A stretch of 64,000 bases of DNA from assembly GCA_030141605.1 (NCBI GenBank), contig JAQGDQ010000442.1, positions 131,706 through 195,705 on the forward strand, in the 5' to 3' direction. This document shows positions 20,872 through 64,000 of the stretch, piece after piece (within the stretch, counting starts at the first letter, position 1; every line of letters starts with the position of its first letter). Made by a program: the position numbers and the translations under genes. Source of the stretch: Tubiluchus corallicola (taxonomy: Eukaryota; Animalia; Priapulida). The notes beneath the pieces were generated by a model, which saw nothing but the letters and a program-made list of their open reading frames with translations, did no database searches and was not told the DNA's origin.

Positions 20872-22034
20872 TTCGTTTTAATAATTCTAGCAAGACGTAA
20901 GCTCTACGGATCCAGCGCCAACATTCACTACTGTACCACCAATCTACACTACCTAGCTCACCGCGAGACGAGTTTATTGCAGTACAAAGTTGCAAACCTG
21001 ATAGCGCAGAACGCATACCAAGACAATATATAACATCGCACGTAGATAAATGCATATGGTCAGTCAGAGATACAGGAAAGATAATAATAATAATAATAAT
21101 AATAATTAGCACAAGGCACAATGTATCAAGACACATTGATCTGGAGTAATCAAACACGGACTTGAGAAACTGTCATATCGAATTATAGATCATTTAGTAA
21201 CAATGTAAAATGTTTTTGATTGACATCTGTAGAGTAGCAGCATAATACTGATTCTATCAGTATTGCTCTCTTTTTCTTTCTTTCTTTTTTAAAGTATTTT
21301 GCATTTTTTAATATGTTCTGCATGAAAGTATAATTTTGTTTTCACGAATATTTGTTAAAAAAGAACGCTAATGATTTAAATAATTCTAATTTGGAAATTT
21401 GACATTTGTTTTGAATAAAATTTTGTCAGAAGTAAAACATGGACACTGTTGATTTAGATAATTATATATAAATGTTTATCAAATCTCTCATTAATAATTT
21501 ATTTTCTTGTACATTATGTGAGTTATTACAATACATATAATATACAGTTTATATATTATTATAAATGTTATTATTATATTATAATATTATTATTTGCATG
21601 AAATTTGAAATAATTCCGTTGCTTGGTTCTTTTTATCTTTTATTGCTTGCTTGCATTATTGCAATTGCAATTTCATTTTCATTTGTTTTTTATGTTGGCG
21701 TTATATCGATTTGTTATGATTTTGCTTGCTTAAAATTCGTTTTAGTTAAGTTTCATTTTATAAATATTCTCAAGTATACAACTGTCTTAATTTTTTTACT
21801 TGGCATTTTTTATAAAGTTAATAACCATCATAATAGTACTATTGTAAATTAATCATCAGAGCATAGGATGACAGCAATGATGATGGCGTTTTTTCCATTC
21901 TGTCTTGGAAATTATATTTGAACATCGTTGTGATTTGTGTACATGACCTGTAGAGACAAGACGACAAAGAGAGGGAGAGGGAGAGGGAGAGACAGGATTG
22001 AGAGAAAAAGAGAGAGAAAGAGTGAGGGAGAACA

Positions 22035-22360
<326 letters not shown>

Positions 22361-22959
22361 CTAGAGAGAGAGGGGGGAGAGAAGAGAAAGGGGGAGCGAG
22401 AGAAAGAAAAAAGGGGGAAACTAGAGAAAAATGAAGAGAAAGGACTGTGCAAAATTAAGCAGTAACCATAACTGAAATGACATGCGAGTGAACAGTTATG
22501 AAGAAGTCAATTTGAAAAGCTCGCTGGATTTTGCTATAGTTGGGAGCGGAACTGATGTCGTATCCTACAATCGTGATGATCAAGGATTAAGATCATTTGT
22601 CTTCTAGGGTGTGTTCTGCAATCACAAGCTGATGGTACATTTTTATAGTCAACATCATCAGTTTCTGCATCGAACTAGGTTGCGTCAACGCATGTACATG
22701 GATGAAGAAATTCAAAAGAAATGTAAAAAAAATATGTGATATATGAGACTCAGAAAAGTTCGCACATAGTAAACCATTACTCTAAGTCTACATAATGAAG
22801 GACCACAGCAATAAGCGTTAGAACAATAAAACAAAAACTTTCACTTTCTTTTGCCTTGTTTTATTATTCTAACTTTCTAACTCTATAATCGCCGTGGTCG
22901 TTCGTTATGTAGACTTGGCGTATGTTAGTCAAGATTGGCTATTTTGTTGCAGCGCAATT

Positions 22960-25900
22960 ATGGCTGCTGCACTAAAACTTTTGAGTTTTTTTGCATCGAT
23001 ATTTGATAGCATACCTTTGTTTTTCTTAATATTATTGACGTTGGTTATTGGTGTATTATTTTGGATTTACTACAGAGCAACAACAGGAATATATTCTTTA
23101 ACTAATATTAAAAATCCAGCTGAATTTGTCGCTGATCAACGTCTGCGGGATAAGGTGCTTAAACAAGGTAAATTAGGTTGTATGACGCGGAGTACGCCGC
23201 TAGGCGAAGCAGAACACTTCCGTTAAAGCGCTTGTCCTAAATTTGCGGAAAAACAGTGTTTTACATGGGCAGCCTAAGTAGAGCTCTGGCGATTTCCGCC
23301 GAGAATCGAGAATTATGACATAATAAAAAAAAACTCGGGCACTGTAGCTCGCTGGCCCGTTTACTATTTGTCCAAGAAGTAGTGAAACGTATCATCTGTC
23401 TGTGCAGCGAGACAATAAAAAATGATATACCTTAAGCAAATGTTGGAATTGCCTAAAAAGCTTATTTTACTTCATAAAGATTAATATCGAAGCCAAATTT
23501 AGTATTGCCTATTGGCCATTCTACTAGCTCAGAATAAAATTCTTTTGTTTTATCAGATGTATAATAAATTATTCAACATGTATTGAATAATTTTCAACGT
23601 TTTCAATCATTATTATTAAATAAACATTGGCAATTGATGCTGCCAGTAGGGTTAACGACTCGATTTGTGACTTGTCTGTAGTGTCCTACTTGGGCAACCC
23701 ATGTACGACGCGCCCTACTTTGGCTAGCTCATGTACGATGTGTCCTACTTGGGCTAGCCCATGTACGACGCGTCCTACTTGGGCTCGCCCTGTATGCCAA
23801 TTGTCTTACTTTGGCTAGTGTCCTACTCTGCTCCCAACAAGGTAACTTGAGAGTTGTTATAAAACATTTACTTTCTCTAAAAAGCGGATTTCAGTATTAT
23901 GAGATTTCGTTATTTCAGTATTTTTGTCGTTTTGTTTCAGGTTTTGCTACCAAGAAGTTGCCAAGCAATTTAGATGCTATAGTGATTGGCAGCGGTGTCG
24001 GAGGATTAACCACCGCTGCATTCTTAGCGAAGCATGGAAAGCGAGTTCTAGTCTTGGAACAGCATGACCAAGCTGGTGGTTGTTGTCACACATTCATCGA
24101 AAATGGCTATGAGTTTGATGTTGGTGCGTGAAGTTTTACTCTTTAGAGCGATGTTATGGGATGAAAAAAACTTGCTTTGAACGATTAGTAGGACGGAACT
24201 ATTGGTTTTAATTCCCCTTTGGTTCTGTGAAAGTTTCCCCGATTCTTTGCAGTTGTCATGAAACTATCTACAAGACTGTTAAATACAAAACCATGTGTAA
24301 AATCGTGCCTATAATTTATAAAATGGTTTGTACAATATTTTGGAACAATAACTTTATGATCATTTTCTTAGTGAATCTCCAAATTAACGATTTGTCATTT
24401 AGTTTTTCTAAAATCATAATCGTTGAGTGTATCTATACTGCACCCCACCACATTATTAGAAGTGTTGAAATTGCATCAAAATGGAATTTATTGCCGACTA
24501 GTTTTGAACAAACTGTTCATTGTCAAGGCATCTAAAACAAAGAAATTTAACAGTCAGTACCATTCAGTAGTTAGATAGACAAGAGGTATATGATATAACA
24601 TTATATAGATAATTTAACAATTCCTTACAGATTACATATCTTGATTGGTATGAAATTATTCTACTCTCTACAAACAAACAAACAAATATGTTAGTAGTTA
24701 TATTTTGATGTAGTTACCTCTATTTGCCATATATGGATAATTCAAGTGTTGAAATTGATTGAACTTTGCTGTCATAGAAAGCAATAACAATATTTTGTCA
24801 TTTTTAAAACTCTGTTTCAGTCCAATACTGGTTATGTTCGTAACTACTGTGGTTTTAATTAAATCTAGTTGTTTTTGTGTACATTTACCTTTTCGTTTGC
24901 TATTTAGGCATACATTATGTAGGAGAAATGGCACCGGGAACTCAAAACTTTGAAATGCTTAATCAGTTGACCAATGGACAGTTGGTGTGGACAAAACTGA
25001 GCAAAGATTTCGATTCGGTAACTTTTGTAGTTTATCTTTTATGAACTATGTATTAATGCAGGCGTGGTTGCATTTTGTTACGGTATTTGATGAAAACTTT
25101 GAAACTATACTGTCATTGAATTTGCATGTTATATAGCTGTGTATTGTTTGTGCAGATTTTCATGTTTATGGTAAGAGAAAATAAATTTTACTAATTGCTG
25201 AAAAACTATTTATAAACCTAGTTACTAGTTGTACTTTGCTTGTATATTATTGATTTCCAGATATTCAAACTGAAATCTTATTTATTCATTCATTTACCAA
25301 TCTATTTATTCCTTCATTTTTTATCTATTTTTGTTTTTCTTTTTATTTTAATTTTCTTTTTATTTTAATATTGACTGTTAAAGCTACCAGTTTGTGCAGA
25401 GTGAGGTTTTTTTGCATTGCTATTGAAAGCTGTGTTATCATGAAACTATCTGAAATTTGAACTATGTGGGTGTAGGATTAATGGTGGAGTGATTGCTGTG
25501 TGTGCTTAGGCTTAGCAGTACAAGTTAAGCAATGCTGAGCCTAATACGCAACCGGTGGGTGATTTTCTTGTTTAATGTAAGAAAGTGTCATCATCAAGTG
25601 TGTGAAAAACGATACAGTATTGATTAATTGATCATCAAGTTGTTTCTTCTCTAATTAATGAAATGAAAAAAATGATAAAATGATGAATACCAGCTAGTTG
25701 TACTGCAAAATTCAGATAATAACAAAACTGAAATAAAAGAGAAGAAATATAGGTGAACAAAATATAAAATGAAAATTATGTAATGAGATTTCGTATTGTA
25801 GCTACGATGATATGTTTTCATAAATACTTTCCTTAGTTGTGAATAGAAAAAGTAAAGTTATGCAGTATAACAAAAACTATTGTTTGGCATTATATTGTTA

Positions 25901-28900
25901 ATTAATTAGCACAAGCAGAAATGATAAAATTGATTCGTAAGATTTATTCAATAAATCACCAATAACAACAGCTTACTAAGGCGTCATTATAATAATTCAT
26001 TTAGCAATTAAAAACATAAACAAGTTGTTTTTGTCGCAGTTTAGATATTGTTTTAGTGTTTACATATTTTGTTGTTTTTCTTACCGTCTTGTAGGTGGTA
26101 CTTGGACGGCAACGTATTCCAATTTGCTCACCAAAGTGCGAATTCAAGAAGCAGCTGCTTGAAAGATTTCCTGCTGAAAAAGATGCCATCGAAAGATTTT
26201 GTCGCTACCTAGGTGTAAGTATAACTGCACAATGGAAAATTGGAAAGCAGTTATTGCGACATAGTCCTCTCTCATATTTGAATCAGTCGCTTTTATAATA
26301 ACCATAATATATAGCAAAAGTGGGAGGTGAACATATTTGCTAAAACATTTATGTTGCTGTTGTCTTTTTAATACTAATGCTTGCAACATTCTGTATAAGC
26401 TTTTTAAAGACAGTTAATGTACCACAGTTCACGACCAGAATTTCGAAGCGAATCCTAGAATCCATTCGCCTAAACATTCGCACCAATGCCTGTTATTGGG
26501 ATTCACACAGACTTTACCTAAGTGTTAAAAAAATAAAGATAATATTCTCACTAATCGGCCTCTTACACCTTTTGCCTTGTGCTAGCACACATGCTGATAT
26601 ATTGTTCTTATGAATTTACAATGTTACTTCCCAAGTGTCTTTGGTGCGCTGTTTTTCATTCAGTGTTGCATAGAGAAATCATAGGGTATCTGTGCTCGTT
26701 GCGAAGCCAGCAAGACCACAAATGTGTGTCCAGAGTGTATGAAGTTTGATAGCGGTCGATTTGTCAAATTACCACTAAAATTTTGCGTAAATATAGAGCA
26801 ATTCTTGTTTCACATACTTGCGATACATTTTTTGATGAAGGAAATGACGATTTTGGTTCAATGACAAAGAGAATAATTAACAAAATACCTAATTGGCTTG
26901 GAGACTGAATCAAGAAAGTTAGGTCTCGTTGTAAAAAAGATGCTAGCACTAATAGTGATTAATTCTTATAATAATCCAACTTTAATTGAAATTCAATCTT
27001 TGCTGTTTCAGTAATTATAATTCATCGTACTTGAACTATATAATTTTGACCTCGATTCTCTGGATTCTCGTAAAATGTCACGGCGAGAATCAGCTTAGAT
27101 TTTGGCGAAATATAACAAAATTCTGGCCATGTAATTATATAGACAGGTACCCTTAAACATGTCCTGAATTAGTGGGATACAGTTTGATAGGGGTTTAGAG
27201 ATGCTTCGCCGTATTTTGTATTCTGTTACGGATTCTGATAGACGGTGGTTAGTGATAGTCGGCAGTTTGTAATGGTGTGGCAGGATTGACGGAGAAGTGG
27301 CATGGAGACGTGCTGTGGTGCAGATTCATGACAAGTTGAGGCTGAGAGGGTTGCAGTGGTTTCGTCACGTAGCGAGGGCAGAGGAAGGGAATTCGCTGGG
27401 GGAGGTGGGAAGGGAAGGGAAAGACATCGTGGAAAGGGTGTGTGTAGGATAGCTTGAGGTTCGATGAGAAAGGAAGGAGATGGTACAGGATAAAGTGTTC
27501 TGACTGTCCGTCTGACCTCTCAGTGAGAAGATGAAGGCATATAAGTGAAAATGATAACAAAATAAATGAATATTAAAGGCTGCTTAAGATTATGCTGTAT
27601 TTTTTCAGAGGATTGCTATACAAGGCTACGGATTAGCTTTGCCAAAGTTTCTGCCATTGACAGCTGCCAAGTTTCTACTAAAAACCGGCATTCTTAGATG
27701 GCTTACTAGGTATGTTGTCATCAAGTTTTATCTAACTACACAAGTTAATTCTTAGTGTGGTTATGATAAATGTATAGCTTTTTGTTGTGCTAGAGTAAAA
27801 AATCCTTCAGATAGATAGAGGGGTTTATCCTAGTTCATCCAAAGAATGTGACCTCTGCTTATCCTCAGTGATTCTCATCTTCAACTTCTTGGGATGTCGA
27901 AACTCCCAGTAAACAAAGCCATCCTTTTCGGTGGCTTCATTATGACAAATAACAACAAAACAGGTGACAATCTGTAAGTAATTTATTTATATTTCCATTA
28001 TTGCGGTTGTCAAATCTGAAAATGTGGTATTTATCGCTATTTTTGCCTAATAAATTTAATTTGAAAAATTCTTTGAAAATTGGTAAAGTCTGCCTGTTTG
28101 TGGTGTGTAGTTCTAGACATAATTTGTTGTCAATGTTAAATTACATATTAAAAATACTATTGTAGATACACAAGTTTTGTTGGTGTACAATAATTAACTA
28201 AGTGTTAGTTCCATATTTTAAACTTTTTAACACTGGAAACTTGAATTTTGTCCTGTTTGTACTTGCCTTCTAAATGAGCAGTGTTTTTGTTTATCTTGCG
28301 GAAAACTGACCATCTTATTATTCGTAGTTGTTAAGATTTTCTTTTATTTTTGTGAAGTTAATAACTCACTATATGCTAACTTTCTACAGTATTTTTCTGT
28401 TAAATTTTTAATTTTTGTTAATTTATTAAAGAAATTCAAACTTCAAATGTTTAACTTTGTTCATGCAATATTACCAAGCTTTTCATTAGTAAATATTTAA
28501 GTTTTTGCAATTGTTGTTTCTATGCGTGTGTGCATCTGGCTATTCTGTATGTTAAAACTCATTCTTCACAACTCTAGCTTTTACGCATACAATGACATGA
28601 ATCTTCTGGACACGGTCAAGCAGTTGACCAATGACCCATGCCTGCAGGCCATCATGTGCTACAATTTTGGTGATTACGGTGAGATGACACATGCTATTTA
28701 CTAATAAGCATGTTCGCTAGTTCAGCACGGTGCATGTTGGGCAGGCAAACTAGAAATTAACTCGAACTGCACGACGTCCTTGGTGTACTGTTGCAACTTA
28801 CCATAAGTTTTTATTTGTTAATAAATTACCTTAAATTATAAACGTGACGCTTATTACGAACTAACCATGTCACCAGGGGCCAGTAGTGTTGTGGAACACA

Positions 28901-31900
28901 AGATGCTTCATTATTCCTGCTTATTAACCTCTCACAAATAAGTAAATATAACATGCAGACTCATGTCTAGTTCTGAGTAACAGAGCCTGTTTAATGTGGC
29001 CAGTTGTGCAATGACTGGAATCTGTCCTATCAGGGACAATCTTCTGAGAGACTGAACCAGCAGAGGTGTCTCTGTCATTTTAGAATGTGAGTACATCCTC
29101 CGTCAAAGAAGAGGATGTGATTTTGCCATATTTTTGTTTGGAATTCAGGTGTTTGATTGGCAGTGGATTGTACATATGATAATTGTACTTCTTGCTGTAC
29201 ATACTAACGTGCCACTTGGTGTAAAGTATAGAATTCAGTACAGCAGGCATACTTCTGCATTGTTTTTTTAAATTTGTTTATAATGAGTAGAGACGTTTTT
29301 GGAATGCTTGCAATAAATATTGTGCCTTGATAACTCATTAACATGCATTTTAATTTTTGTTAACTTTTTAGTTTGTTAACAAAAATCACCAATGTAGATT
29401 TCTAGGTCTAGATAACAAATTAGATTTATTGTATATTTTATGTAGATGTGCTTGGTTTGTTATGATTGTTAATTGATAACATTTTAGCTAACCTGTTTTC
29501 GCTATAATTGTGTTTGAATATTATTTTCAGATTTAAGTACTAATTATGAATTACAGTTTACGCTAACAAGTTAAATTGCTTTCACTAAGTTACTTTTGCA
29601 GGCACCAAATAACTTGTTGTTTAGTTAGCTATTTAACAAGCTTAGCTACTGTTATAGGCAACGTGTTTCAATATTTTAAAGTTATGGCGATCTGGACTAA
29701 TCATTACGTTTACCAGGTTATGTACGTTTTGTAACACTTTTACCTCCACAGACTCTGGAAGCTCAATACATAATTTTATACCACATGCTGCATGCATTTC
29801 ACAATTCACGTTCATTTTAATGATTGTCATTTGTGCATGCTACACATGTGCGTTGTGATCACAAGTTGTGCATGCTACACATGTGCGTTGTGATCACAAT
29901 TTGTCCATGCTACACATGTGCGTTGTGATCACAATTTGTCCACGCTACACATGTGCGTTGTGATCACAAATGTCAAGAGTTTTTTTAATTCAGAAAGAAT
30001 TTGTAATTTGTCTCTTATAAGTGAGTTAAAGGCATTTCTTAATGTTGATGTTCAAGCCTTTTTATTCACGTCTTAAATGTGCCTCTTGTTTAAATTGTAA
30101 ATTTCCAACAAATGACACTGTGTGTGCTCGTGCGTGCATGTATTCAAAATATAGTAACATGTTACTAGTAGCGGATATGTGGTTCTGATTAATGTGTGTT
30201 ACTAGGATAAGAATTCAGACCACCTTTGCTATGCTAGGCCATTAACTTAAATGGTTAGTTCAACCTGTCGTGTAAGCAGGGAGGTGCTGGGGTCGAATTC
30301 TGGTTGATACACAATTTTTAATGCTTCCTTCTTGAAAAAATCAGCAGTTAGGGTAATTGTTGTAAGCATGCTTTGTTTATTCATGTGTTTTTGTCGTAGA
30401 AAGTGTCTGTGTGAGCATGGGCGCCAGTGTAAGAATGAATGGCATGCAGTTCAGTAATTGTTGTGTCATTTTTCTGCTAGCAGACATTGTGATCTATAGT
30501 AGTAAGCTCAATTCACTTTCACGATGTAATATTTCTCACTTGTAGGTGCATTGCCAAGTGAAAGTAGCTTTGGCATGCAGTGTTTGATTCTGAATCATTT
30601 CTTGATGTTCGGTGCTTTTTACCCACGAGGTGGAGCCAGCGAGGTTGCTTTCCATCTTATACCAACTATTGAAGAAGCTGGAGGGCGAGTTTTGGTGCGA
30701 GCACCTGTGACGCAAATACTGGTCAATGCAAAAGGCGAAGCTGAGGGTGAGAGGAAGGCCTTTGTTTATTTCAAAAGCAGGATCTGTTTTTGTATTTCTT
30801 CATTCAAAAATGTATTGTCTGCCTGCTATTCAGTGAGTTTTCTTAGATCAGTGATTCAAAAGCTAAGAGACACTTGACTCCCAGGAGAGCAATCCTAAGG
30901 GGAGGAATTTTTGCCAGGGGAAGCATTGGCAAGGAATTTAAACATTAGGTTTAACTCTATTTTGGGGAAAGAATATGTCTGGTGCAATGTGTCTGTCAGT
31001 TGAAATACTAGTACACAGTGTTGGTATCTCTGCATTCGGCTAATAAGAAGGTTAAAATGGAAGCTTTCTTTGTTATTGTCAACTTTTTCTGAGAAGTTTG
31101 AACATTGTTAGAGCATGTAGGAACTAATACTGAATTGCAAATCAAAACAAAAAAAAAATGATCATGCGTAATTGTGAGATTATGATATTTTAGACTTGTG
31201 TTATTTATGACAATGATACTTATTATTGTATTTATTAGGTGTTCGTGTAAGAAAGGGTGACAGTGACATAGATATACATGCACCTATAATCGTATCTACT
31301 GCTGGAGTGACGAACACATTTAACCGCTTGTTGCCAGAAGAGATCGCAGAGAAGTCAGGTAAAAAGGAACTACTGTTAGTAGAATGATCTACCAAAAAAT
31401 TAATCTAAACTGAAAGTGCTACAAAATGATGCAAATTTTGTCAAGTAGTTTTTTTGTCAAATGAAGAAGTTTAATAAATTCGCAGCAAATTTGTTAGTTT
31501 AAATGTTTCTGCTGCATACCTTAAGATCTGTGAGTTAGGCTAATTAACATTGGCATGTCCAGGTTATTTTTTAAAATTTTTCAAACAACCAGTATACTTA
31601 CAAAAAACAATAATTGAGGATTTCTTCACAACTTCCGGAGTCAAGCAGTTAAGTCACGTAAATGTCCTATACTAACTCATGGAGGTTGGTTGCTAAATTT
31701 GGCTGAACATTGCAGAGAGTATATAGGGAGCTTATAGACAGAATAAAGAATGTTGGTCAGTTACGTAAAGGATATAATCGGTCTAGTTATATTAGGTTTG
31801 AGTATGTCTGGTATTAGTTATTGTACATATTATAATTATTTTGAACTGCAGTTACGTCCACCTTATTATCTTAGTGACACAACATTGCCATGACATTGTG

Positions 31901-34900
31901 AATGTTTGTGTCACAAATGTTTTGTTATAAATACAATATGTTATTCTGCTTCATTAATCTTAAAAAAAACTACTTTTGAAATATTTTTCACCATTTAGTT
32001 CAAATCAAATTCCAGACAATTTGCAATATTTCCATGGCTAGTTAAGAACAGTTTGTGTACAAAATTGTTGTTGTTGGCATCTTTCTGTCTCGGAAGACAA
32101 TGGAGTGTGCGCCAAGAGAGTCAGTTATTGATCACATTGATGGAGCTGCAGCATCGACTGTGGCTGGGCAATCCAAACCTTGAACTACTGGAGTGGCACA
32201 GGGCGCACGTCTGGGCAAGGTGTATGGAGATGCTGAGTTGCCCAGGCAACAGGAACCCCCTCTCTTCCTCCCTGGTGTAGTCCAAAGGAAAGCGGAGCGA
32301 TAGGTTTGGCACTAGGTTGGCTGCAGGAGCTGCCGGAGTCAATGAGCATGCTGCACTGGTCCGCCTTTGGGGCTCCACTCCTGATTTGGAAGCGTCCTAC
32401 ACATGGCCGTTGGGTCACTTGACCTGCTTCGCCCTCTAGCCGGTGGCTGCTTGTGCAGCTCCTCCGCCTAGTGTCGAGATACAGTGTGGGCATCCCGCAA
32501 GCCTACAGCACCTGGTATTCCTAGGCGGTCACCCATCTAAGTACTAACCAGGCTCTACGTTGCTTAACTTCGGTGATCAGACGAGAACTCGTGTTTTCAA
32601 CGTGATATGGCCGTACAAAATTGTAGATTACAAATATAAGCATTTCTTGAAGCACTGCACCTCAAGTCAAACTTTTCCCCAAGAAATGCTTTTCAACATT
32701 TCTGTTTGAAAAGTTGCAAACAATGTCACAATTTTTTGAAAGAGTTGTACGCAGCTGAAATACCTATGTAAATAGCTATTTTTTATTTTAGTATATCATC
32801 TTATTTTTTATTTGTGTACATTGTAGGGTTTCATGGCATGATTCCTCACAGTGGAGTTCGGCCGGGTATTGCTTGCATACAGCTGTTTGTTGGTTTGAAC
32901 GGAACGACAGAATCGCTGCACCTGCAGGCACAGAACACGTGGTACTTCCCCGACGAATCCTTTGATTTAACAGGCGCCATGCAGAAGTACTATGCGTTAA
33001 GCGTACATGAAGCATCCGAATCTCCTGTGCCCTGTACGTTCATTTCTTTTCCGTCAGCGAAAGATCCTACATGGCAGAGCAGATATCCAGGTGTGTTTTC
33101 CTTTCTTGTCTTATTTAAGAAAGTCCAATGACATTTATCTGGCTTAAAGAAAGTGGGCAGAGCCGTAGGTTGGTGCCTCAATATTCTGTTTTGTATTTAG
33201 AGATCTGTGAATGATTGGTTTTCTTATTTCTTTAAATGTGAATGCTCAGATTATTATTAAAATCAAACAAACACATTTTTACATTAATATTTTCCTTTGC
33301 ATGGATAGTACTACCTGTGGAAATAGGTGCGTCTATTCTCCTTTCTCTTTCATTGTTTTCTACAAGTGTCGTCGTCTCCGAGAGGATCAGAAACAAATTT
33401 CTTAATTTTTTATTATTTGGTTGTATTTATGGTAGACTTTATTACAGCTGAACAATCTGCTTAGTGGTCAAAGTGCATTCATAGAAGCAAACATACTTTT
33501 ACCCACTACGGAAGAAATATTTAAGTTTGGAGTTCAGAAATGATTGCCAATTTTCCACATGTGCAAAAATATACAGAGTCAGTGTCACCAATAGCATTCT
33601 AGGGTTCTAGGGATCACAATTCTATTGATAACATTTTTTTCCCATTTTTTATTTTTACTTTTGTTTGCAAAAAGCAACATCATAACTGCACTTGTGGATG
33701 GCTAAATAAACTTAAATATGTTTATATGTCTTGATGCTTCTTAGAGAGATACTTGTACAAATCTGGGTGCTTACATGCATTTCAGGCAAAAGTGCAGCAA
33801 TAGTCATCACGCTTTGTCCATACGAGTGGTTTGAACCATGGGAAAACGAAAGAGTTAAGAATCGCGGTGAAGAATACGAGGCGTTAAAGGCGGGTTTTGA
33901 ACGACAGTTGTTGCGTCGCACGTTCGAACTCTACCCCCATCTAGAGGAACACGTGAGTGACAAGTTTTCTTTTATCCGGGTAGTGAGTTAATATTTGTAT
34001 GTAGATGTATAACAGACAGTCGTAACGGATGTAAAACGACAGAAGTGGCAAAGTCTCCAAACATCTTGGAGATCTTTGTTTAAATTTACGTAAGTGATTT
34101 GCAAAGCAGTTTTGAATTAAATATGCCAGTATGATGATGATTGCAAATTAGTAATTTGTTATTTTATGGTCAGTATTCTGTAGTGTTCCTCCGGATACAC
34201 TTTTTTGCCGGATGTCATCGAATATTTCCTCAAACTTACTTTCGGGTTCGGATTATAACCGGATAGGTTAGCTAAGTTTGGATCGAATATGCGGATCAGT
34301 TCGGATAATGAAAAATTAGTAATGTTTGCAAACTTTAGAGTTTTCATTTAATCTATCACCTTAAAGGACCTAGCCCGAAGATATACCATACACACACACA
34401 AATGAAAAAAGATGTGTGTAAAATTTTCATCTTGAAAACACAAACGTAGGCTAAAACAATCTCAAAAGTTTTTTTGGTAATATTTTAAATACTTATTTTT
34501 CAAATTATTCAAAAACTGTTTGCAGTTGCACATTACGAAAACCGGATAGCGAATATCAAATTTTTATAACTACCGGATAATATCGGATACGAATACCTGC
34601 AAAATCTTGTGAATTTCACCATTTTCGGATACGAATCGGACATGAGGAGCAACACTAGTGTTCTCGTGCTTACTGGAAAAGTTTTTGTTTGTGACTTGTC
34701 TAAATGCCATGTTTTTTAGTGTCTTGATAAGTTTCAATGTTATGAGCAATCTGCATAACACGCTTCAGGTTACAGACAAATAGGTTCATATTATTATGTT
34801 GTTCGATGCAGGTGGAGTATAAAGTTTTGGGCACACCAGTATCACACGCTTATTACGTTGGCTGGAATCGTGGTGAAATGTATGGACTGGACCACCATCT

Positions 34901-35492
34901 TCAGCGGTTTGGTCCTCATGCCAATACGATACTACATCCTCAAACGATGATTCCCAATTTGTATATCAGTGGTAAGTATCTTTTGTCCAAGTTTTTGAAT
35001 GTTGTTATTTTCCTATTTTGTTAAGAGTCATCTTATTATTCATGATAAACAGGTTTTCTTTTCAGCTTCTAGTTCGGGCAGCCACTAGGCATTCAAGCTA
35101 GAGGCTGAGAAAAGTAAGTTCAGGTAATTACCCTTATATAATTCGGCACTGTTATTTATATTTGATGTATTTTTTGGTTTTTTATTTTTCAAACAGGACA
35201 AGACATATTCACCGGAGGACTGTGTGGGGCACTAATGGCAGGAGCTCTGACAGCGTCATCCATTTTGAAACGAAATCAATTCATCGATGTTCTCTGTTTC
35301 CAAGCGAAAAATTTCGTCACTGACTGTTTCTCACGAAACACGAAAAAGGCGTTGGATGATGACGGCGATGACGTGAAAAAGTCGGAGGCAGTTGCAAATG
35401 GTAGACCCAGTTCAGACAATGCTTGCAACAGTCCGTTCAATGGACATGTTCAATCAGAAATGAATGGTTGCACTACTGTTTTAAACGGGTAG
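22960..35492 (+). CDS. RETSAT: All-trans-retinol 13,14-reductase-like protein, paralogue 2, ~676 aa
   Basis: 12 exons: 22960-23167, 23941-24123, 24908-25017, 26095-26214, 27609-27709, 28578-28678, 30546-30746, 31239-31358, 32827-33090, 33786-33952, 34812-34971, 35197-35492. All GT-AG, total 2031 nt in frame. Motifs [13 protein letters not shown]...[29 protein letters not shown]; [14 protein letters not shown]; [10 protein letters not shown]; GQDIFTGG. Confidence 0.95.
23178..23840. mobile_element. MITE with imperfect ~40-bp TIRs and 30-bp subterminal tandem repeats, copy 1
   Basis: Colinear similarity with 49604-50967; repeat unit GTCCTACTTGGGCTAGCCCATGTACGACGC near the right end. Confidence 0.7.
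27230..27530 (+). mobile_element. Decayed RTE-clade LINE 3' remnant
   Basis: GC-rich island translating to [22 protein letters not shown], which resembles the RLxWFGHVxR motif of RTE ORF C-termini, followed by a GR..KTSW-like segment. Confidence 0.6.
29836..29969. repeat. 35-bp tandem repeat, ~4 copies
   Basis: Unit CATGCTACACATGTGCGTTGTGATCACAATTTGTC, containing the palindromes CACATGTG and TTGTGATCACAA. Confidence 0.92.
30237..30310 (+). mobile_element. Degenerate tRNA-derived SINE head or tRNA pseudogene
   Basis: A-box-like TAACTTAAATGG and B-box-like GGTCGAATTC at tRNA-like spacing; no intact cloverleaf. Confidence 0.35.
32069..32615 (-). mobile_element. 5S rRNA-derived SINE (SINE3) with RTE-derived body and (AAC)n tail
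   Basis: 5S head at 32615-32499, ~430-bp GC-rich body, tail ...GAGACAGAAAGATGCCAACAACAAC. Perfect 12-bp TSD GTACAAAATTGT at 32057-32068 and 32613-32624. Confidence 0.9.
32499..32615 (-). pseudogene. 5S rRNA sequence serving as SINE head (not a functional rDNA unit)
   Basis: TACGGCCATATCACGTTGAAAACACGAGTTCTCGTCTGATCACCGAAGTTAAGCAACGTAGAGCCTGGTTAGTACTTAGATGGGTGACCGCCTAGGAATACCAGGTGCTGTAGGCTT is a near full-length metazoan 5S sequence. The first ~3 nt and the oligo-T terminator are missing. Confidence 0.93.
34181..34657. mobile_element. hAT-like MITE with subterminal CGGATA repeats
   Basis: Ends TAGTGTT / AACACTA; degenerate TSD GTATTCTG/GTGTTCTC; many CGGATA motifs near both ends. Confidence 0.6.
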
Positions 35493-39036: not shown

Positions 39037-42000
39037 ATGTGCGTTCGCCGGTGAGACAGTCATGCCTCAACCATGTATTGATTTCTTGCTGTAACCGGTA
39101 TTTTCTAACTTCTTACGTATTATGTTAGATTGGACGAGGTTTCATTCGTTTCTCTTCGTCCAATAGTTATGAGGCTTCCTTCATCCACAATACGTCTGTT
39201 CAGGAAAGTGGGTGTGACTGCATTGGACAGCAATAATCTCTGTCGCCAACATAAAAAGTCAGTAATCTTTTGTTTCGTTGAACTAATAAGTACGCCGTTC
39301 TGTTTCTGCTGGTTTCATTGCATTTTTCTGATGTAAACACATTAATCTACTTTATTTGTTGATCTTATTTAAAGGTTCCTTCATATGACAATGGCTGCTA
39401 TGGGTGAACACATGGAACGTACGAGTGGATCATTCAGAGCAGAAGTGAGTTTGTTTAGGATAGTCATGTGTTATTATTATTATTATTATAGTTAACATGT
39501 GCAGGCCGCAGGCAGGATGTACTTGATTCAGTTTGAAAAGAAAAACACATTTGTCTAAAATGACAGTTACATTTTTATGACACTTAAGTTTTCATTACTC
39601 GACTTTCTATAAAATGTGAATCATCAGTATTTTATTTTGTCTGTATCTGAAATATAACTTATCATATTGATTAACTATACTTCACCATGATTCCAGCCAA
39701 TATAATGTATGTGTGGCACTGTTGCGTAAACTACATTTTCTGTTTCAGTCAAGCTCTAAAGCAACAGTGATATCGGTAACTAATGCTTCCGAGAATGTTA
39801 AATCCTTGACGCTAAAAGTGGAGAATCCTAATTTAACATTCAAAGCCGGTCAGTGGTAGGTTGAAATTAACCAATTTTTAATGAAAAAATAATTTTGTAA
39901 ACGTAAATATGACAGTTAACAGGTCCCAAAACAACTCAATTAATTATGTTTTAACACTTACACTCATATCTGTTTGCTGGACAAACGTGGAATCGGTCCG
40001 AATTTGCCGATTGTCTATATTTACCGATACTAACCTAATTGTCACAAAAACGTCTAGTACGGGCCACTCCAATGCAAAAGTATGTAAAAACTGTCGGCAA
40101 TTGTCTCAAATAACTCCACATGGTTGACTCTATATTTTTATACATAGAGATATACATGTGGTTACACTGATGTAATGATGTAAACAAAGTGACGGCCGGC
40201 CAACTAGCGGTCAACTCGCGAAACAACGGACTGTATCCGTAGTATGCGGGACTTTATGGTTCAATTTTTCCGACAACTGTAGAAGGGTGGTTCGGCAAAC
40301 TGAGATACGGGTGTATTTGCTATATTCTTTAATCGCCAACTTGATGAAACTACGACACATTAAGTGGTGCCATCTAATGGCAATACTTGTAATTAAAGAG
40401 TTTTGCATTTTTAGGGTAGATTTTCGTACTCCCGAAGTTAGTGAAGTTGGTGGATTTTCAATTTGTTCCTCACCCCTAAAACTTCAATTGATGAACTTAA
40501 TAGAATTGGCTGTAAAATCCAGTGATGCAGCACCAGCAACATGGGTGCACGAAAAGGTACAATTTCAAGTCAAGTTATTTTGCAATGTTTATATAAGTGT
40601 TCTAATGTGTAGCTGTCATTTGTTCATTCAAGCGTTTGGCTTGAAAGTAAGTTTTATTACTGCTGCTGATATCACACCGTAAAAATTGATTTTCTGACTT
40701 ATTTTGCAGTGCCATTTAGGTAGTGAAGTTACTGTACGTGTGGGAGGAGATTTCTTCTATGACCCCCTACCAACGGATACCAAGTCTGATTTACTGTTAA
40801 TTGCTGGAGGCATTGGCATCAACCCGCTGTATTCTATGATTCAACATGCAGCTGAGTTGATTCAGTCTGCAGCTGCAGGTGATAGCGTCACACCAATAGG
40901 ATCCATACTTTTACTATACAGTGCTGAGACAAAGGGAGACCTTATACATAAAGTAAGAATTCATAACATATGCTTAGTCCAAAGATACTTACTGTTATGA
41001 TTATTTGACAGTTTTCAGTTTTTATGCTTTAGAATTCTGCTGAAACTTACAAAATGCTAGATGGCTAAATGATAAGAGTGATAGAGATGATTTTATCATG
41101 CTTGTACAATAAATAAATAGTTTTTGTTACAAGTTGAAACAAAAATTGTAAATATACAATGTGCAAGTGACAGTTTTCAAAGTGCTTGTCCAGGTTCGGC
41201 ACTTTAATTTAGAGGACAAGAAAAGGGGTACCTAAAGTAGGTTTCAGAAAAATCGCCTTAAAAAATTATATTACTTTATAGCAATTATAGCGTATATCTT
41301 ACTCGCACTGAAAGGAATTTTAGTTTGTTTTCATTTTAAATCTCCCGCAATACTGTTCCGAAGTCGCCATTACATGACGTCATGTGCCAAACGTAAATCA
41401 AGGGAAGAAAGAGCAATACTAAATTATATCTCAAAAGAATTTCCGTGCAAATCTATATTACTTAGATTTTCGCTTACCTGCTAGAAAGACTTATGTAACT
41501 AGAAAAGAAAATTATTAATTATTTAAAATGTTTTCACCAATTGGTAAAATGTAGCTGACTCACCCTACAGGGTGCACCACTCACTAACCAAAAAACGTAT
41601 TTTTAATCTTATTGACAAGATACAGTAATTTTAAATTTTATTTAGTTAGTGACTTGTGCGCTACGAATGCTCTGATTATTTTTTCAAACTATACAAAATG
41701 TTATCTAAACTTGTTTCAAATGACCTGTCGTGAAAATGGCTGCGTCTAACGGTCATCGCGGGAGTTTAAATTTACATGTTTTATACAGCGTGACTGCTGA
41801 TTGAAGTCCTGCATGCAAAAAGGCAGTATGTAAGTGAAATAAAATTTCAAAACGAATTTTTCAACCTTTATGTTTATGAAGGGTTTTCTTGTGCTTTAAG
41901 TCTTAAAGATTGTATTTCGCTTAAAATAAATTTCAGGTGACTAAAAAAATCAGAAGAAATATGACATTTATCCCAGTCCTTGTTCCTTATGTAATTTCTG

Positions 42001-44822: not shown

Positions 44823-47800
44823 CTATCTTGAATCATCTACTTGTACCAGATCAAACTGGTCAATTGTAGACATGACCAACATCAAGTGGTCCAAGAAGGA
44901 GTTGATGCTAACCCTGAGAATCCGAGCTTCGCTTGCCTGGATTTTGCTGTAAAAGAAACAATTTGGATGATTGCAATATATTTACAGCAGCGCCTTTCCA
45001 GCTGAACTCCAGTCGGTTTATTTCTACAGTCGACCTAGCCGGAAACCCAGCTTTAGTCGCGCCAGTCCCTTAGTGATGGGTGTCGAGCTAGCTGATATTT
45101 TTGCCAGCTGCAAAGGTTTTCGCTCGTGATAATCGTGTGACACTGTAAACTACTGGTTGAAATATGGCAAACGCATTGTGGATTCGTGGTCAGATTGTGC
45201 ATGTGCTGGCAGAGATACTAAATTTAGAAATTTTTGTATGCGAAAGCTGGTCAATTTTATATAGGCAAATATACACAAATAGGCAACGTTAGTCACACGT
45301 ATGGGATTATTTTGGTGTTTTGGTATCGATTCGTCAGTTATCAAGATAAGCCTTGCCAACAGTTGGATTTAAATTATATTTACAATAAATCCACTGCTTT
45401 TTTATAATAATAAAAAATTGATTTTTAATGCATTATTTGAATTTGTACATTTTTCTGTGTATAAGCAACATTAATTATTTAAAAAATTTGTCTCCATAAT
45501 TTAACAGTTTACTAACAATTTATCATTTATTTAGTTAACAAAAACTCGTAGCTTCAGCTGACTTAACTAATGAGTCAGTTAACCTCAACCGAGCTAGCTG
45601 ATTTACCGTGTGAGTCAGCTGATGCATTAGCAACTGACTCAGCTTCAGCCGAGCTAGCTAATTTACAGTGTGAGTCAGCTGATGCATTAGCAACTGACTC
45701 AGCTTTAGCCGAGCTAGCTAATTTACTGTGTGAGTCAGCTGATGCATTAGCAGTTGACTCAGTTTCAGCCGAGCTAGCTGTTTTACTGTGTGAATCAGCT
45801 GATGCATTAGCAATTGACTCAGTTTCAGCCAAGCTAGCTGTTTTACTGTGTGAATCAGCTGATGCATTAGCAATTGACTCAGTTTCAGCCGAGCTAGCTG
45901 TTTTACTGTGTGAATCAGCTGATGCATTAGCAGTTGACTCAGCTTCAGCCGAGCTGTTTTACTGTGTGAATCAGCTGATGCATTAGCAAATGACTCAGCT
46001 TCAGCCTCTAAAAGAAGAGCAAAAAGGCTTTGTGATGCTGCACTTATTTCCAGTATTCAAGAACACAATCAGTTCACTGCTTCAATTCACTAATTTTGCA
46101 TTACCAATTTATATAAAATTTCCCGTTTTCTTTTAAACAAAGCATTGCGAAAATTTGTTTTGATGAAAAACAATCAAAACAAAAGTGAAGCTGTGTACAT
46201 GAGCCTTATTAATTAATTACTTTTATAAGAACTTTATTGTACTGAACATTGTTCTGTTTATACATTCTAAAAAGTTACTGGGTGATGGATAGGTGTTGTG
46301 CTAAGGTGTAGGTAGTGAGGTGTGGGTGGTGTAAGGTGAGTGGTGTGCCAGGTTGGCATCGTGTGGAGGGGGTTGTTGTGAGTTTATGCACAAAATTCTT
46401 TTTGCGGTGTTTGGCTAGTCTTATATATTCCGAGGACAGCACCATTCATGGAGATCTATAAATCAAATGAAAGGTCTCAATCTAGTGTCATCTCATTGGG
46501 GGTTTATTTTTTGAATTGGGCCCATCGGTATGAACGGGGGGCGTAGGGGAAAGCTCCAATCATCATTGTCTGCATCACCATCATCACGTGATGTAGTGTG
46601 GTATAGTGGATGCAGCAAGTATGCTGTGGTGTGGTATAGAGTGGGGGATGTGGCACAGTGCAGGTGGCGTGATGTGGTTGACGTGGTGTGGTGTGGGGGT
46701 AGGTGTTATGGTATGGTGTTTGTGGTGTGGTGAGGGTGGTGGGTGCTGTGGCGTGGGTTGTCGTTGTGGGTTTATGTGCAAAATTCGTTATTCGGGCCTT
46801 GGCTAGTAATCATATTAATTTATCAATACTGGTACATGATTCTGCAAAATTTAATGTAATATGAAAGTAAGACAGTTTAATGTTTAAAGATTTGAAAATA
46901 TTTTTTCATCTAACTTTACTTTGATAAGCGCGTAAAACATTTTTTACACCTTTGTAGAGTTTGGTGTCAATTTTTCTTTTAATATTTTTGTATAATAATA
47001 CCAGAGGTCGCCTGTAGAAAAATTGTTTACAACTTGACTGTGACAAACGACAAATGTCTATGTATCACTCTTATTTTTACATTAAGGATTTACTATCAAT
47101 ATTTTGAAAGCTACTGCCATCTCACCTATGACCTAATGAGCTATCAGTATAAGTGACTATGAATCGAAATCAGCATCAAACTATGCCGCCTGGTCCCAAA
47201 GTCAGCATTAAAAGGAGTCCACAAGTGCAGTCGTTTTAACAATGGCAAATCAATTTATCAACAATCTCTTACATTTCTGCATATACGTACACTGTTAATA
47301 TGTTAGAACTAACTTCTAGTTCTTTATGACAATGTGCTTTCCGTGGCTCCCGGTCGACAATTAAACTGTTGCGGGCAATTTCAGCATGTCTACTTGTTAG
47401 GAAAGGTATCGTCATTTCACTAAAAAGAAATTAGGTTTGGTTAACATAAAAGCTAATATAAAAAAGCATATATCTTATAAAATCTCAAGTGCAGATTTCA
47501 TTAATATTGTGAAAGTCATTTGAAGTTGTTGTTCACTCACTTTATTATGATTGAGTTTAGGCACAGAAGTATGAATAAGAATAAAAAACCTATAATACAT
47601 ATTTGCACTGCACACAACAGAAAAGTGTTTATTAAAACTATAGAAACATGAGTAGCACAACTGCTGCACTGAACACTGAGAGAGAGAGTGACTAGAAAGC
47701 AAAAACAGTCAGTATATATAGGTATAAGACTTGATCTATGCAGACTTGCACAGGCTTCACAACAACCACTACTTTAAAATAAGGAGAGAACCAGTGAATA

Positions 47801-50800
47801 TGCATTCACTGGACCATACAATTATACTGGGGGTAAGTCAGCTGGTAGAATGTAACAGGAGTAGCCCATAGATGGCAGCACCTAATTATAATGTACAATT
47901 CCAACTTCCACAAATATCAAGGTAAACTAAAATTATTTAAATATTTAATATTATCATTTAACACATTAAATCTTTTAATGACATAAGTGTAAGTACAGTA
48001 TGGAAACAAGTAGCAAAACTTAGCAAATATAAACATCATGCCATGCATGTGTCCTACACATGCTGGTGACTGTTTATTTTTCTAACTGACTACATGACTA
48101 AATGGTATATCTTCTACTTAAGAAGACTACTTGGGTATAAGATGTACTGCCGAATAACGTGCTTTCTGTCAGTTGGATATCAGCAGTGACCAGTGCCTCC
48201 TTGAGATGTTACAAATCAATAAATTGTTAACAATTATTTTGATCCAAAAAACTGCTATCCTACCAGTGTTGCTTTCAATATTTTGTCCTTTCATCAATTT
48301 CTCTGCTTAGCTTGACGGAGACAGATTTTGAAAAATATTCATCAATGACATGTAAGTGGTGATGACGAATAAAAGTATAGTCATGAACTGGTAATAAATA
48401 TATTTTTTGTATTTAAAGTCATTTGGTAAATTTTGGATGTATTCTTATACTTCTGCTTCTGCTTGATAGTGCTGAAACATATTTGTATTTGATCCAAACA
48501 CAAATTATAGTACTTGACTCCAAACCTAACTGTCAATAAGGCACGGGTATTTCATAATCACAGTCTCCTCAATCATATCAATAAAAAAATTCAGCTCACG
48601 CAAAGCTCATTCTTTTACTATTCATATGGAGAAAGAGAAATGCCATTAACGTACTGAGTGCCGTTCCAAGTTGACCTGCTCAAGTTCTAAATTTTCATAT
48701 AGTTCAAATGCAAATTATGCAACAACAATAGTATTGTAGGTGCTGTAGTCTTTATCTGAATCGTTTAATACAAATTCAGTAAATGTGTGGGCAGAGCTGT
48801 GACGGAGCTGTTAAATTGACAAATTAATTGGTTATTTCATGCCTATAAAGGCTAGACTGAGATGTAAAAATGCCAAGTTAGCTGAATATCCAATATGGGC
48901 AGTACTAGCGATACGGGAGATCTTCGCATTTGTTGCAGAAAGTCGTCAGTTGCTTCCACTATAAATGTGCAATGCCAGTGTGATGGCCAGCCCGACCTAA
49001 ATATTTCTGAACATATATCTGGCATTGTCTGTACCCATCGCATATATCGCAAAGTTTTCGAGGTTAGTACATTATAAGAAAATTCATGTAAGTGCTATAG
49101 ACGTATAAATGTGTATGTACCATATTGCTAAATAAGTTTTAACACCTAAGTCTGACTTGGAAATAGGATTCAACACTCAAGTTTCACTTAGAAAGAACTA
49201 AAATTTAATAAGATTTAACACTGAAATCTGGCTTGGAAAGGTTATCCAAAAATTCTTAAACGATGACTGGTACATGTGGGGTCATACGCACTTGCTCGAC
49301 ATCCACGTGCACTAGGACACCGCACAAGACCTCGCCATGTACTGTGGTGCATGGCAGCACATGGGAATGTTCAGCGAGCTTGCAACAAATGTCTCCCATG
49401 TAGTGTTCTGTCATTTGTAGAATTATCAAAAGTTCTATTCTAAGTGAATGTACGGTAAATACTTATGATAATAACTAGAACAGCATTTTAATCCGTGAAA
49501 ATATGTATAAAGTTCTGTACTGGCAATCAATGTTTAATTTTACGAAAGCCAGTGAATTAATTATGAAAGTCTTGAATGTCGAGTAGAAGCACGAACATCA
49601 TAATTGTAAGGCACAGAGTATGCCACTAGCCGAAGCAGGACACTTCCGCTAAAGTGCATGTGCTAAATTTGCGGAAAAGCAGTATCACACATGGGCAACT
49701 GAGTATGCAGCCCTCGAAAGGCACTAGCGATTTCTGTCGAGAATTATGAGATAAAACTTAAAACTAAATTTGTTTTAGAAAAACAGCAACTTTATAATAA
49801 TGATGGATAGTCCTTGACAATTTACAAAAGTATTTTTCACAATAATACAGTGGTTCCCAACCTTTTCCTTGCCAAGTACCCCTTCTAAATGTGGCGATCT
49901 TCAGCGTACCCCCACCTGATATTTTTCAACAAATCGTTTGAAAGCTGATAATTTTTCGTGAGCCTCGACAATGTTCATGTTGTTTCCTTGAATTGAAATA
50001 TTCAACTCATTCAAGACAGAAAAAATGTCTGCCAACTAAGCAAGCTTCAGAATGAAGTTCATGTCTTCGAAGAGGTCAGCCAAGTCGTCCATCTGCATTT
50101 CTCGAAAGAGCGAGAAAGCGACAAAATAAAAGCTTTTCGTGGGCGGGTAAAAGTATTTTCTAGCACACTGCGCAGGAATGATATTGTTTGTGAAATGGTG
50201 TATTTTACCCTTTTCACTGGCTACAGAAAGAAAAAAATGTGTCGATCTGACACACCTTCTGCGTACCCCTGGTATTGCTGTTGCGTACCCCCAGGGGGTA
50301 CGCGGGAACCACTGCAATAATATCATCATTAATTAGCTCCGTTAGTATCTTCATAACGTTAAACGAAGTATTTGATGTTTTACAGAGAGAAACTAGAAAC
50401 AATGTAGAGCACATAGCTCACTAGCCCATTTACTTAGCAGAAAAAAACTATTTGTCCAAGAAGTAGTGAAACTGATCACCTATCTGTGAAGCGAGACAAA
50501 ATAAAAAATGATATACCTTAAGCAAATCTTGGAATTGCCTAAAAAGTGGACTTATTTCATATCAAAAAGATTAATATCTACGGCAAATTTTATATACTGG
50601 CCGTTCTCTAGCTCAGAAGAAGATTCGTTTAGGCGCTACTACACTTTCGCACCTCCTACTTTTTTCTGGCTTATTGTCTGTCTTTACGTCTGTAGGCCCT
50701 AAAGCAGACCAACAGGCATAATATACACCATATTCCCATAGTATTATAGGTTTTTAGGCGTTATATTATTCAACGTGTATTGACACTTTCAATTATTATT

Positions 50801-54665: not shown

Positions 54666-55073
54666 CACGAGGTAGGGATATTAAAAATATGCAATAATAA
54701 CTATATCAATTACTAATCTTATAATTCATAACACTTAGTTCTGAACTCTGGATTTTTTTACATGAATAACAGGGAATGGCATAAATTTTCTTTTCCCATA
54801 CCTTTCATCTTTTTCAAAATCTAGATTTGACAGACTTTGATTGTACATAGATTTACAGTCGTGCAGAAAAAAATTAAATTTGATGTTATTTTTTTAGTAA
54901 ATTTATATTATTTTTATAAAAGACGTTACAAACTATAGATTTCAGGCTATTAAATTACTGGCTATCTAATTACCGAATCTGCATGTTAGCTTTTTCGGTG
55001 CCCAATACTGAGTGTCACAAAATCTTTTGCGCACAGAACTACACCAAAAAGAGCAAAACAACAGACTTCTGAT

Positions 55074-62098: not shown

Positions 62099-62612
<514 letters not shown>

Positions 62613-63524: not shown

Positions 63525-64000
<476 letters not shown>

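What the first reader, a model, noticed from the sequence alone, without database searches (positions are those of the whole stretch)
32057..32624. Intact 5S rRNA-headed SINE with a bipartite RTE-derived body: candidate new SINE3 family
Seen (minus strand): a near full-length 5S rRNA with internal promoter boxes (AGTTAAGCAACG; TTAGATGGGTGACCGCC) but no oligo-T terminator. It is fused to ~430 bp of GC-rich sequence ending CCATTGTCTTCCGAGACAGAAAGATGCC(AAC)n, and the unit is bounded by a perfect 12-bp TSD. The last ~120 bp translate as [14 protein letters not shown], resembling the CHSRIGLxSHxRxC C-terminus of RTE LINE ORFs. The middle (~32186-32498) looks, from memory, like an RTE 5' UTR. Known: 5S-derived SINEs are much rarer than tRNA SINEs (zebrafish SINE3, springhare Ped-1), and SINEs mobilised by RTE often carry both LINE ends. 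Inference: an independently arisen, recently active 5S-RTE SINE in an invertebrate, convergent on the Ped-1 architecture.
Basis: partly seen in the sequence, partly recalled or inferred. Interest (0 to 1): 0.85.

Follow-up and report, generated by a model that had tools for sequence, protein, structure and literature searches.

The report
Abundant 5S-headed SINE with RTE-type ends
This 560-base insertion is one aged copy of a very abundant short jumping element in an invertebrate genome (likely a priapulid worm or a relative); it joins an almost complete 5S ribosomal RNA gene to the front and back ends of a LINE retrotransposon that likely copies it, a known design that here probably arose independently.

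Summary
Real, and a family rather than a one-off chimera. The minus strand carries a 5S rRNA head (Rfam model 1-120, 99 bits), a body, an (AAC) tail and a 12-bp target duplication, inside an intron. The body matches a full-length single-ORF endonuclease/reverse-transcriptase LINE from a metagenome (L006) in two pieces: 5' UTR (78%, E 4e-70) and 3' end (72%, E 2e-12). In public-run contigs the whole element, head included, is about 7,000-10,000 times deeper than its flanks (not a copy number; likely thousands of copies). Copies share one head-body junction and have unrelated flanks. Pieces of related LINE coding sequence occur at low depth in the same runs. Corrections: this copy is not pristine (at least 16 substitutions and two indel sites against the family majority, one in box C; it lacks 5S nt 1-3). 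The design is known from Ped-1, CoeSINE5, SINE-1_Pmo and the moth HaSE3. New here: the lineage, the LINE donor and the whole 5S head. The scan holds no look-alike of this sequence but noted analogous SINEs in sharks and a planarian. Repbase/Dfam, transcription and RTE phylogeny were not testable.

The parts
32613..32624 (-). 5' copy of the 12-bp target site duplication; its last 3 bases double as 5S nt 4-6
   Evidence: loose ends at 32615
32499..32615 (-). 5S rRNA-derived head, 5S nt 4-120, ending in two T only
   Evidence: Rfam RF00001 99 bits, 32618-32500
32555..32569 (-). Box A of the type 1 Pol III promoter (5S nt 50-64; box limits recalled)
   Evidence: sequence and Rfam register
32522..32539 (-). 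Box C (5S nt 80-97; limits recalled). At 32538 (5S nt 81) this copy has A where 99% of the laid depth has G
32495..32498 (-). 4-nt joint between the 5S end and the LINE-aligned body, the same in the loose-end consensus of three runs
   Evidence: loose ends before L006:191 in 12, 10 and 8 contigs of X1, X2, X4
32187..32494 (-). Body part 1: internal piece of a LINE 5' UTR (L006 191-512)
   Evidence: 250/322 identities, E 4e-70; best of 100 shuffled bodies 28.3 bits against 251
32121..32185 (-). Body part 2a: last codons and stop of the LINE ORF (SRIGLxSH-type zinc-knuckle end)
   Evidence: part of the 80/111 match to L006 3927-4028; 97 tblastn hits from the C-termini of 120 homologues
32076..32120 (-). 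Body part 2b: LINE 3' UTR, the likely recognition site for the LINE protein
   Evidence: role inferred
32069..32075 (-). Short (AAC) tail running into the duplication
   Evidence: heterogeneous loose ends after the repeat at 32065/32073
32057..32068 (-). 3' copy of the target duplication, holding the first T4 run downstream of the head
31361..32825 (+). Host intron (approximate limits) of an FAD-dependent oxidoreductase gene (retinol saturase-like; name recalled); the element is antisense to it
   Evidence: exons at about 31238-31360 and 32826-32948 mapped from the neighbouring paralogue; Pfam NAD_binding_8 on an upstream exon

Best explanation
This is one aged copy of a high-copy SINE that fuses a whole 5S rRNA head to a 5' UTR piece and the 3' end of a LINE (likely RTE clade), and it is likely transcribed by RNA polymerase III and likely copied by the protein of a low-copy LINE in the same genome. 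Shown: the three-part anatomy, the target duplication and tail, high depth along the whole unit, one head-body junction with unrelated flanks, and related LINE coding pieces in the same runs. Inferred steps: (1) an internal deletion of the LINE left a two-ended non-autonomous form; (2) a template switch to 5S rRNA during reverse transcription added the head; (3) boxes A and C drive Pol III, which reads through the two-T 5S end and a body with no T4 run, and stops at the first flanking T run; (4) the LINE protein binds the 3' end, nicks AT-rich DNA and primes on the (AAC) tail, which explains the overlap between tail and duplication. At least two deletion joints exist (L006 500 in the majority; 512-513 in this copy and one other contig), so this copy likely belongs to a minor subfamily, and its box C change likely weakens it as a source.
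For: Head. Duplication and its chance rate. Body = L006 5' UTR (78%) + 3' end (72%), shuffles at most 28.3 bits. L006 has one 1082-aa ORF with Pfam RVT_1 and Exo_endo_phos. Median summed depth over the 14 element bins against the flank: 10,387x (X1), 8,194x (X2), 6,703x (X3); head/body 0.99, 1.13, 0.90, with no dip at the junction. 5' loose ends at 32615 in 71, 62 and 30 contigs share 3 letters and then disagree (agreement 0.41-0.43); 3' loose ends in 35 (X1) and 35+28 (X2) contigs behave alike. Loose ends before L006:191 read the 5S 3' end in X1, X2 and X4. LINE ORF pieces at about 80-85% identity cover 15, 17 and 17 of 24 ORF bins in X1, X2, X4; the two longest listed X1 pieces have depth 56 and 159 against a flank of 11; an 88-base X2 contig crosses the majority joint at L006:500 into LINE-only UTR. 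At 13 of 15 aligned sites where this copy differs from the majority, L006 has the majority base, at 0 the copy's, at 2 neither. The template-switch model and precedents are in PMC5786205 and PMC7245038.
Against: No transcript evidence of any kind. The tool warns that summed contig depth is no copy number; short overlapping contigs inflate it. X1-X3 are one sample. X4 (second study) has a head/body ratio of 0.59 and only partial flank cover, so it may hold more headless copies or be another species. No whole second copy with its own duplication was seen, since contigs break inside the repeat. L006 is a relative from another organism; the host's LINE is seen only in pieces, which may belong to several families and need not be intact. 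The RTE label was not tested by a tree with named references. The 3' hairpin is no more stable than shuffles (z -0.62).
Confidence: 0.85

Rival explanations
1. The mobile unit is a two-ended non-autonomous LINE read by Pol II or by host read-through, and the 5S head rides along without serving as promoter.
For: No transcript data. Type 1 promoters are thought to depend on upstream signals and to be weak when retroposed (as relayed in PMC3272025 and PMC8010984, passages). X4 shows head depth at 0.59 of body; some loose ends at L006:211 run into non-5S sequence.
Against: Copies begin at 5S nt 1 with unrelated sequence upstream, as a Pol III start predicts. Head depth equals body depth in X1-X3. 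The body lacks the LINE's upstream UTR (no cover of L006 1-138) and has no T4 run.
Confidence: 0.06
2. The copies are independent template-switch chimeras of 5S rRNA and a LINE-derived RNA, or a 5S pseudogene beside a separate insertion, not a replicating SINE.
For: Only one copy in the window. The head is nearly whole, as in a retroposed 5S rRNA.
Against: The same junction in three runs of two studies; equal head and body depth thousands of times the flank; one duplication encloses both parts.
Confidence: 0.02
3. The unit spread at the DNA level, as a 5S rDNA repeat whose spacer holds LINE remnants, or by a LINE that targets the 3' end of 5S genes.
For: TEs inside 5S arrays are common (PMC10946416, passages). 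True 5S genes could not be separated from heads in the contigs.
Against: Sequence upstream of the head is heterogeneous (agreement 0.41-0.43), not a shared spacer. This copy is solitary in an intron, with a tail and a duplication around the whole unit.
Confidence: 0.03
4. It is a SINE3, but the donor LINE belongs to a neighbouring single-ORF clade rather than RTE proper.
For: None of the 120 listed homologues of the L006 ORF carries an RTE label, and no tree against named clades was possible. Vingi also supplies two-ended bodies (PMC5786205).
Against: Single ORF of about 1050-1080 aa, long 5' UTR, C-terminal zinc knuckle (108 of 120 homologues), like the octopus RTE-2_OV (PMC9115989, passages). 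By eye the L006 UTR (about 365-512) and 3' end are colinear with the RTE-11_AMi lines printed.
Confidence: 0.04

Closest known systems
CoeSINE5 (coelacanth) and SINE-1_Pmo (python): 5S - RTE 5' - RTE 3' (PMC5786205, text and supplement)
   Same: Same three-part layout with no unknown middle; CoeSINE5 also ends in an (AAC)-type repeat.
   Different: Much shorter (225 and 241 bp), heads match only part of the 5S reference (18-89 at 84%; 29-116 at 76%), and the bodies come from other RTE lineages. No body similarity was seen by eye.
Ped-1 (springhare), partner BovB_Pca (table in PMC3747384; listed as bipartite in PMC5786205)
   Same: 5S head on a two-ended RTE body.
   Different: Mammalian and BovB-derived. 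Its sequence was not seen here.
HaSE3 and other lepidopteran SINE3 (PMC3272025, PMC8010984, PMC5786205)
   Same: Invertebrate 5S-headed SINE with RTE 5' and 3' pieces.
   Different: HaSE3 has an unknown body between head and RTE parts and arose from a tRNA SINE; the related moth PxSE4/5 heads are about 63% identical to 5S. Here the head is whole and sits 4 nt from the LINE UTR.
SINE2_Gav (crocodilians; tRNA head + RTE-11_AMi 5' and 3' parts)
   Same: By eye its donor's UTR segment and 3' end are homologous to the segments used here, and its 5' part ends at about the same place in the UTR.
   Different: tRNA-Gly head, shorter UTR piece (146 against 308 nt). The comparison was not scored.
L006, full-length LINE from a metagenome contig
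   Same: Supplies both body segments at 78% and 72%.
   Different: From another organism: a relative of the donor, not the partner itself.

Membership tests
SINE3 (5S rRNA-derived SINE) | 5' head derived from 5S rRNA with box A, IE and box C | tested here: met
   Rfam 1-120, 99 bits; box limits recalled; box C has one private change in this copy
SINE3 (5S rRNA-derived SINE) | Many interspersed copies of uniform composite structure | tested here: met
   Depth, uniform junction, heterogeneous flanks at both ends; from contigs only, no exact count
SINE3 (5S rRNA-derived SINE) | Target site duplication and simple-repeat tail | tested here: met
   Met for this copy; duplications of other copies could not be paired
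SINE3 (5S rRNA-derived SINE) | Short, non-coding, no internal Pol III terminator | tested here: met
   About 550 nt, stops in all three sense frames, no T4 inside
SINE3 (5S rRNA-derived SINE) | Transcribed by Pol III from the head | not testable with these tools
   No RNA holder listed
Bipartite RTE-derived SINE | Body = 5' UTR piece + 3' end of one LINE | tested here: met
Bipartite RTE-derived SINE | Donor belongs to the RTE clade by RT phylogeny | tested here: inconclusive
   Architecture fits and a by-eye match to RTE-11_AMi; no named RTE reference among stored proteins, so no tree
Bipartite RTE-derived SINE | Autonomous partner in the same genome | tested here: inconclusive
   Related ORF pieces and a UTR-continuing contig in the same runs; intactness and single-family status unknown
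Named families (Ped-1, CoeSINE5, SINE-1_Pmo, HaSE3) | Body sequence shared with the named family | tested here: not met
   Not met by eye for CoeSINE5, SINE-1_Pmo and HaSE3; 5 of 5 short body or L006-UTR words absent from the supplement (weak, gaps and line ends break words). Ped-1 not seen.
Any Repbase or Dfam entry | Sequence match to a deposited consensus | not testable with these tools
   Neither library is offered

The most novel reading that the evidence does not exclude
A young, independently born SINE3 in an animal group with none reported, still carrying the whole 5S rRNA at thousands of loci, whose LINE part begins exactly where the donor's predicted self-cleaving ribozyme ends. It would be a direct test case for two standing ideas: that ribozymes at RTE 5' ends are purged when a SINE is born, and that 5S promoters are too weak outside their array to drive abundant SINEs.
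Probability: 0.2. Interest if true: 0.55.

Novelty: new member of a known kind. Interest (0 to 1): 0.35.

Why it matters
It adds a likely independent origin of the 5S + two-ended RTE design and extends SINE3 beyond the vertebrates and insects named in two reviews (PMC7245038, PMC10946416), if the host placement holds. Its whole head and high abundance make it useful for asking how well a 5S promoter works when dispersed. Practically, thousands of near-complete 5S copies will confuse rRNA annotation in this genome and offer presence/absence markers. It does not change how SINEs are understood: SINE3 is already said to have arisen several times (PMC10886601).

Tried and rejected
No genome is held and L006's record is not held, so no copy count, duplication census or upstream LINE sequence. 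No second copy or RT fragment in the window. Motif scans found nothing in viral contigs or prokaryote genomes; LINE protein scans there found no relative. The metagenome scan gave 9 loci: 1 full LINE (L006), 8 short 3' remnants or chance-length matches, none with a 5S head. Empty site: none among the 15 joints listed of 48, and one contig each in X1, X2 and X3 runs from the left flank into the element; not a test of polymorphism. No duplication found around L006 within the 260 bases searched. The 3' hairpin and the head do not fold better than shuffles. Rfam found no ribozyme in L006 1-900 or the element; my strict HDV-like descriptor found none. A role for 5S nt 81 in TFIIIA binding is recalled; the search for it returned 0 papers. 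The reading C-H-S just before the peptide in this copy is coincidental: those bases align to the LINE 5' UTR. The fucosyltransferase search did not place the host (best 46% among long matches). PDB and atlas searches did not name the LINE clade.

Full report
Observation. On the minus strand, window 32618-32500 matches Rfam 5S rRNA over the whole model (99 bits, E 2.2e-20), the only Rfam hit in the window. The unit is bounded by an exact 12-bp repeat at 32624-32613 and 32068-32057, found nowhere else in the window; 14 of 2000 random pairs of 30-nt zones at that spacing share 12 bp or more. The 5S part ends in two T, and no T4 run occurs until the 3' duplication. The element lies antisense in an intron between exons at about 31238-31360 and 32826-32948 of an FAD-dependent oxidoreductase gene ('retinol saturase-like' is my recalled name). 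There is no second copy in the window.

Origin of the body. One scan of metagenome contigs with the element's 3' motif gave 9 loci. One, L006, is a full LINE with a single 1082-aa ORF (nt 734-3982) carrying endonuclease and reverse transcriptase domains; the other 8 hold only short 3' matches. The element's nt 131-438 (window 32494-32187) match L006 191-512, inside the 5' UTR, at 250/322 (E 4e-70). Its nt 440-549 (32185-32076) match the ORF end and 3' UTR at 80/111 (E 2e-12). The best of 100 shuffled bodies scored 28.3 bits. The body is therefore entirely two-ended LINE, 4 nt behind the head. L006 looks like RTE: one ORF, a long 5' UTR, and a C-terminal zinc knuckle in 108 of 120 homologues, like RTE-2_OV (PMC9115989, passages). 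By eye its UTR and 3' end are colinear with RTE-11_AMi as printed in Kojima's supplement. None of the 120 listed homologues is labelled RTE, so the clade was not tested by a tree.

Is it a family? No assembly is held, so I laid contigs of four public runs on window 31741-32940 (X1-X3 one sample, X4 a second study). Summed depth is flat at 11.4, 188.8 and 6.8 in the left flank of X1-X3 and has medians 10,387, 8,194 and 6,703 times higher over the 14 element bins. The tool states that this is no copy number, and overlapping short contigs inflate it; I read it as thousands of copies. Head over body depth is 0.99, 1.13 and 0.90 in X1-X3 but 0.59 in X4. At the 5' boundary 71, 62 and 30 contigs run on with three shared letters, completing 5S nt 1-3, and then unrelated AT-rich sequence (agreement 0.41-0.43). 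At the 3' boundary they run on after the tail in the same way. Laid on L006 1-4140 (X1, X2, X4, X6), loose ends before position 191 read the 5S 3' end in 12, 10 and 8 contigs. This excludes a one-off chimera and a tandem 5S array with a shared spacer. Whole copies with paired duplications were not seen, because contigs break inside the repeat.

Partner. In one search, contigs about 80-85% like L006 cover 15, 17 and 17 of 24 ORF bins in X1, X2 and X4, and none in X6. The two longest listed X1 pieces have depth 56 and 159 against a flank of 11, far below the SINE-shared UTR. An 88-base X2 contig (450-533) crosses the majority joint at 500 into LINE-only UTR. A low-copy LINE of this type is thus in the same DNA, but the pieces may be several families and need not be intact.

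This copy is aged. One search lists 40 difference rows and hides 40. I took 17 well-covered rows into and left out the low-depth rows near 32168-32201 and 32393-32395 and most minor variants. At 16 of the 17 the majority differs from the window copy (at least 3% of the element); of the 15 that align to L006, L006 has the majority base at 13, the copy's at 0, neither at 2. There are also two indel sites (near 32392-32397 and 32170-32200). One change, at 32538, is 5S nt 81 in box C; that this base matters for TFIIIA binding is recalled, and a search found no paper. The majority joins the two LINE parts at L006:500 (13 contigs in X1); this copy keeps UTR to 512, and one X1 contig of depth 57.8 shows a joint at 513, so a minor subfamily likely exists. 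Recent activity of the family is plausible but not dated.

Host. The window's YIPF6 is at most 61% identical to any of the 120 listed proteins. A careful tree of 30 rows left it unplaced on a long branch. One gene, a simpler model and a hypothesis taken from a note: 'likely priapulid or relative' is tentative.

Mechanism. Shown: anatomy, uniform junction, dispersion, LINE homology. Inferred from established SINE biology and Kojima's model (PMC5786205): internal deletion of the LINE, template switch to 5S rRNA, Pol III transcription from the head with termination in the flank, and target-primed reverse transcription by the LINE protein. The overlaps of the duplication with the tail (4 nt) and the head (3 nt) fit priming and 5' joining by microhomology. 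A side lead: L006 126-191 can form the nested pairings of an HDV-like ribozyme and ends where the SINE's LINE part starts; 0 of 1000 shuffles match with the loop rule and 46 of 1000 without. The descriptor was tuned after I saw the candidate, the catalytic-base rule failed, and Rfam found nothing. It is a lead only.

Comparison with what is known. PMC5786205 (main text parts 1-4 of 5; supplement part 2 of 15 and passages from two searches) lists Ped-1 as bipartite and gives CoeSINE5 and SINE-1_Pmo as 5S-RTE5'-RTE3' and HaSE3 as 5S-unknown-RTE5'-RTE3'. PMC7245038, PMC10946416, PMC10886601, PMC8010984, PMC3272025, PMC3747384 and PMC4824008 were read as passages. Two of them place SINE3 in vertebrates and insects only; 5S-related SINEs in Aspergillus were seen only in a listing (PMC5063351). 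The original Ped-1, SINE3 and RTE-ribozyme papers were not read. Paper searches showed no 5S-RTE SINE from a non-insect invertebrate; the library is partial, unread supplements may list more, and Repbase and Dfam could not be searched. The scan's index has no look-alike of the sequence and no such note in this genome, but holds unchecked notes on 5S-headed two-ended SINEs in sharks and a planarian.

Verdict. A real, abundant SINE3 with a two-ended, probably RTE-derived body: a new member of a known kind, likely of independent origin. Its distinctive traits are the whole 5S head, the long LINE-derived body and the host lineage. Interest 0.35.

Noticed in passing
L006:126-191: Nested pairings resembling an HDV-like ribozyme end where the SINE's LINE part begins; post hoc descriptor, catalytic-base rule not met, no Rfam hit.
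   Followed up: partly
window about 3500-17800 (-) and 22900-35300 (+): Two divergently oriented paralogues of an FAD-dependent oxidoreductase (retinol saturase-like, name recalled) with matching exon series.
   Followed up: partly
window 51480-52199 (+): YIPF6 is encoded in one uninterrupted reading frame and sits on a long branch.
   Followed up: partly
window 55074-56312 (-): Uninterrupted alpha-1,3-fucosyltransferase-like ORF, at most 46% identical over long matches.
   Followed up: partly
window 62397-62586 and 63606-63795: 190-bp inverted repeats at 98% identity about 1 kb apart; possibly a young DNA transposon.
   Followed up: no
window 6845-7106 / 19232-19492, 6249-6554 / 12100-12324 / 41591-41899, 16000-16323 / 52954-53289, 7558-7653 / 49848-49943: Other interspersed repeats, one pair 100% identical over 96 bp.
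   Followed up: no
window 10104-10773, 45554-46006, 53726-54666, 60555-61524, 21840-22500: Minisatellite and microsatellite arrays.
   Followed up: no
window 32781-32820: Small depth rise (51 against about 10 in X1; 274 against about 165 in X2) just past the element; perhaps another short repeat.
   Followed up: no
L006:394 (X1) and joints: Some contigs seem to end in an (AAC) run in mid-body, and many carry internal deletions; there may be shorter derivatives of the family.
   Followed up: no
run X4: A second study holds the same family with the same majority bases, partial flank cover and fewer heads per body; same species or a relative is unresolved.
   Followed up: partly
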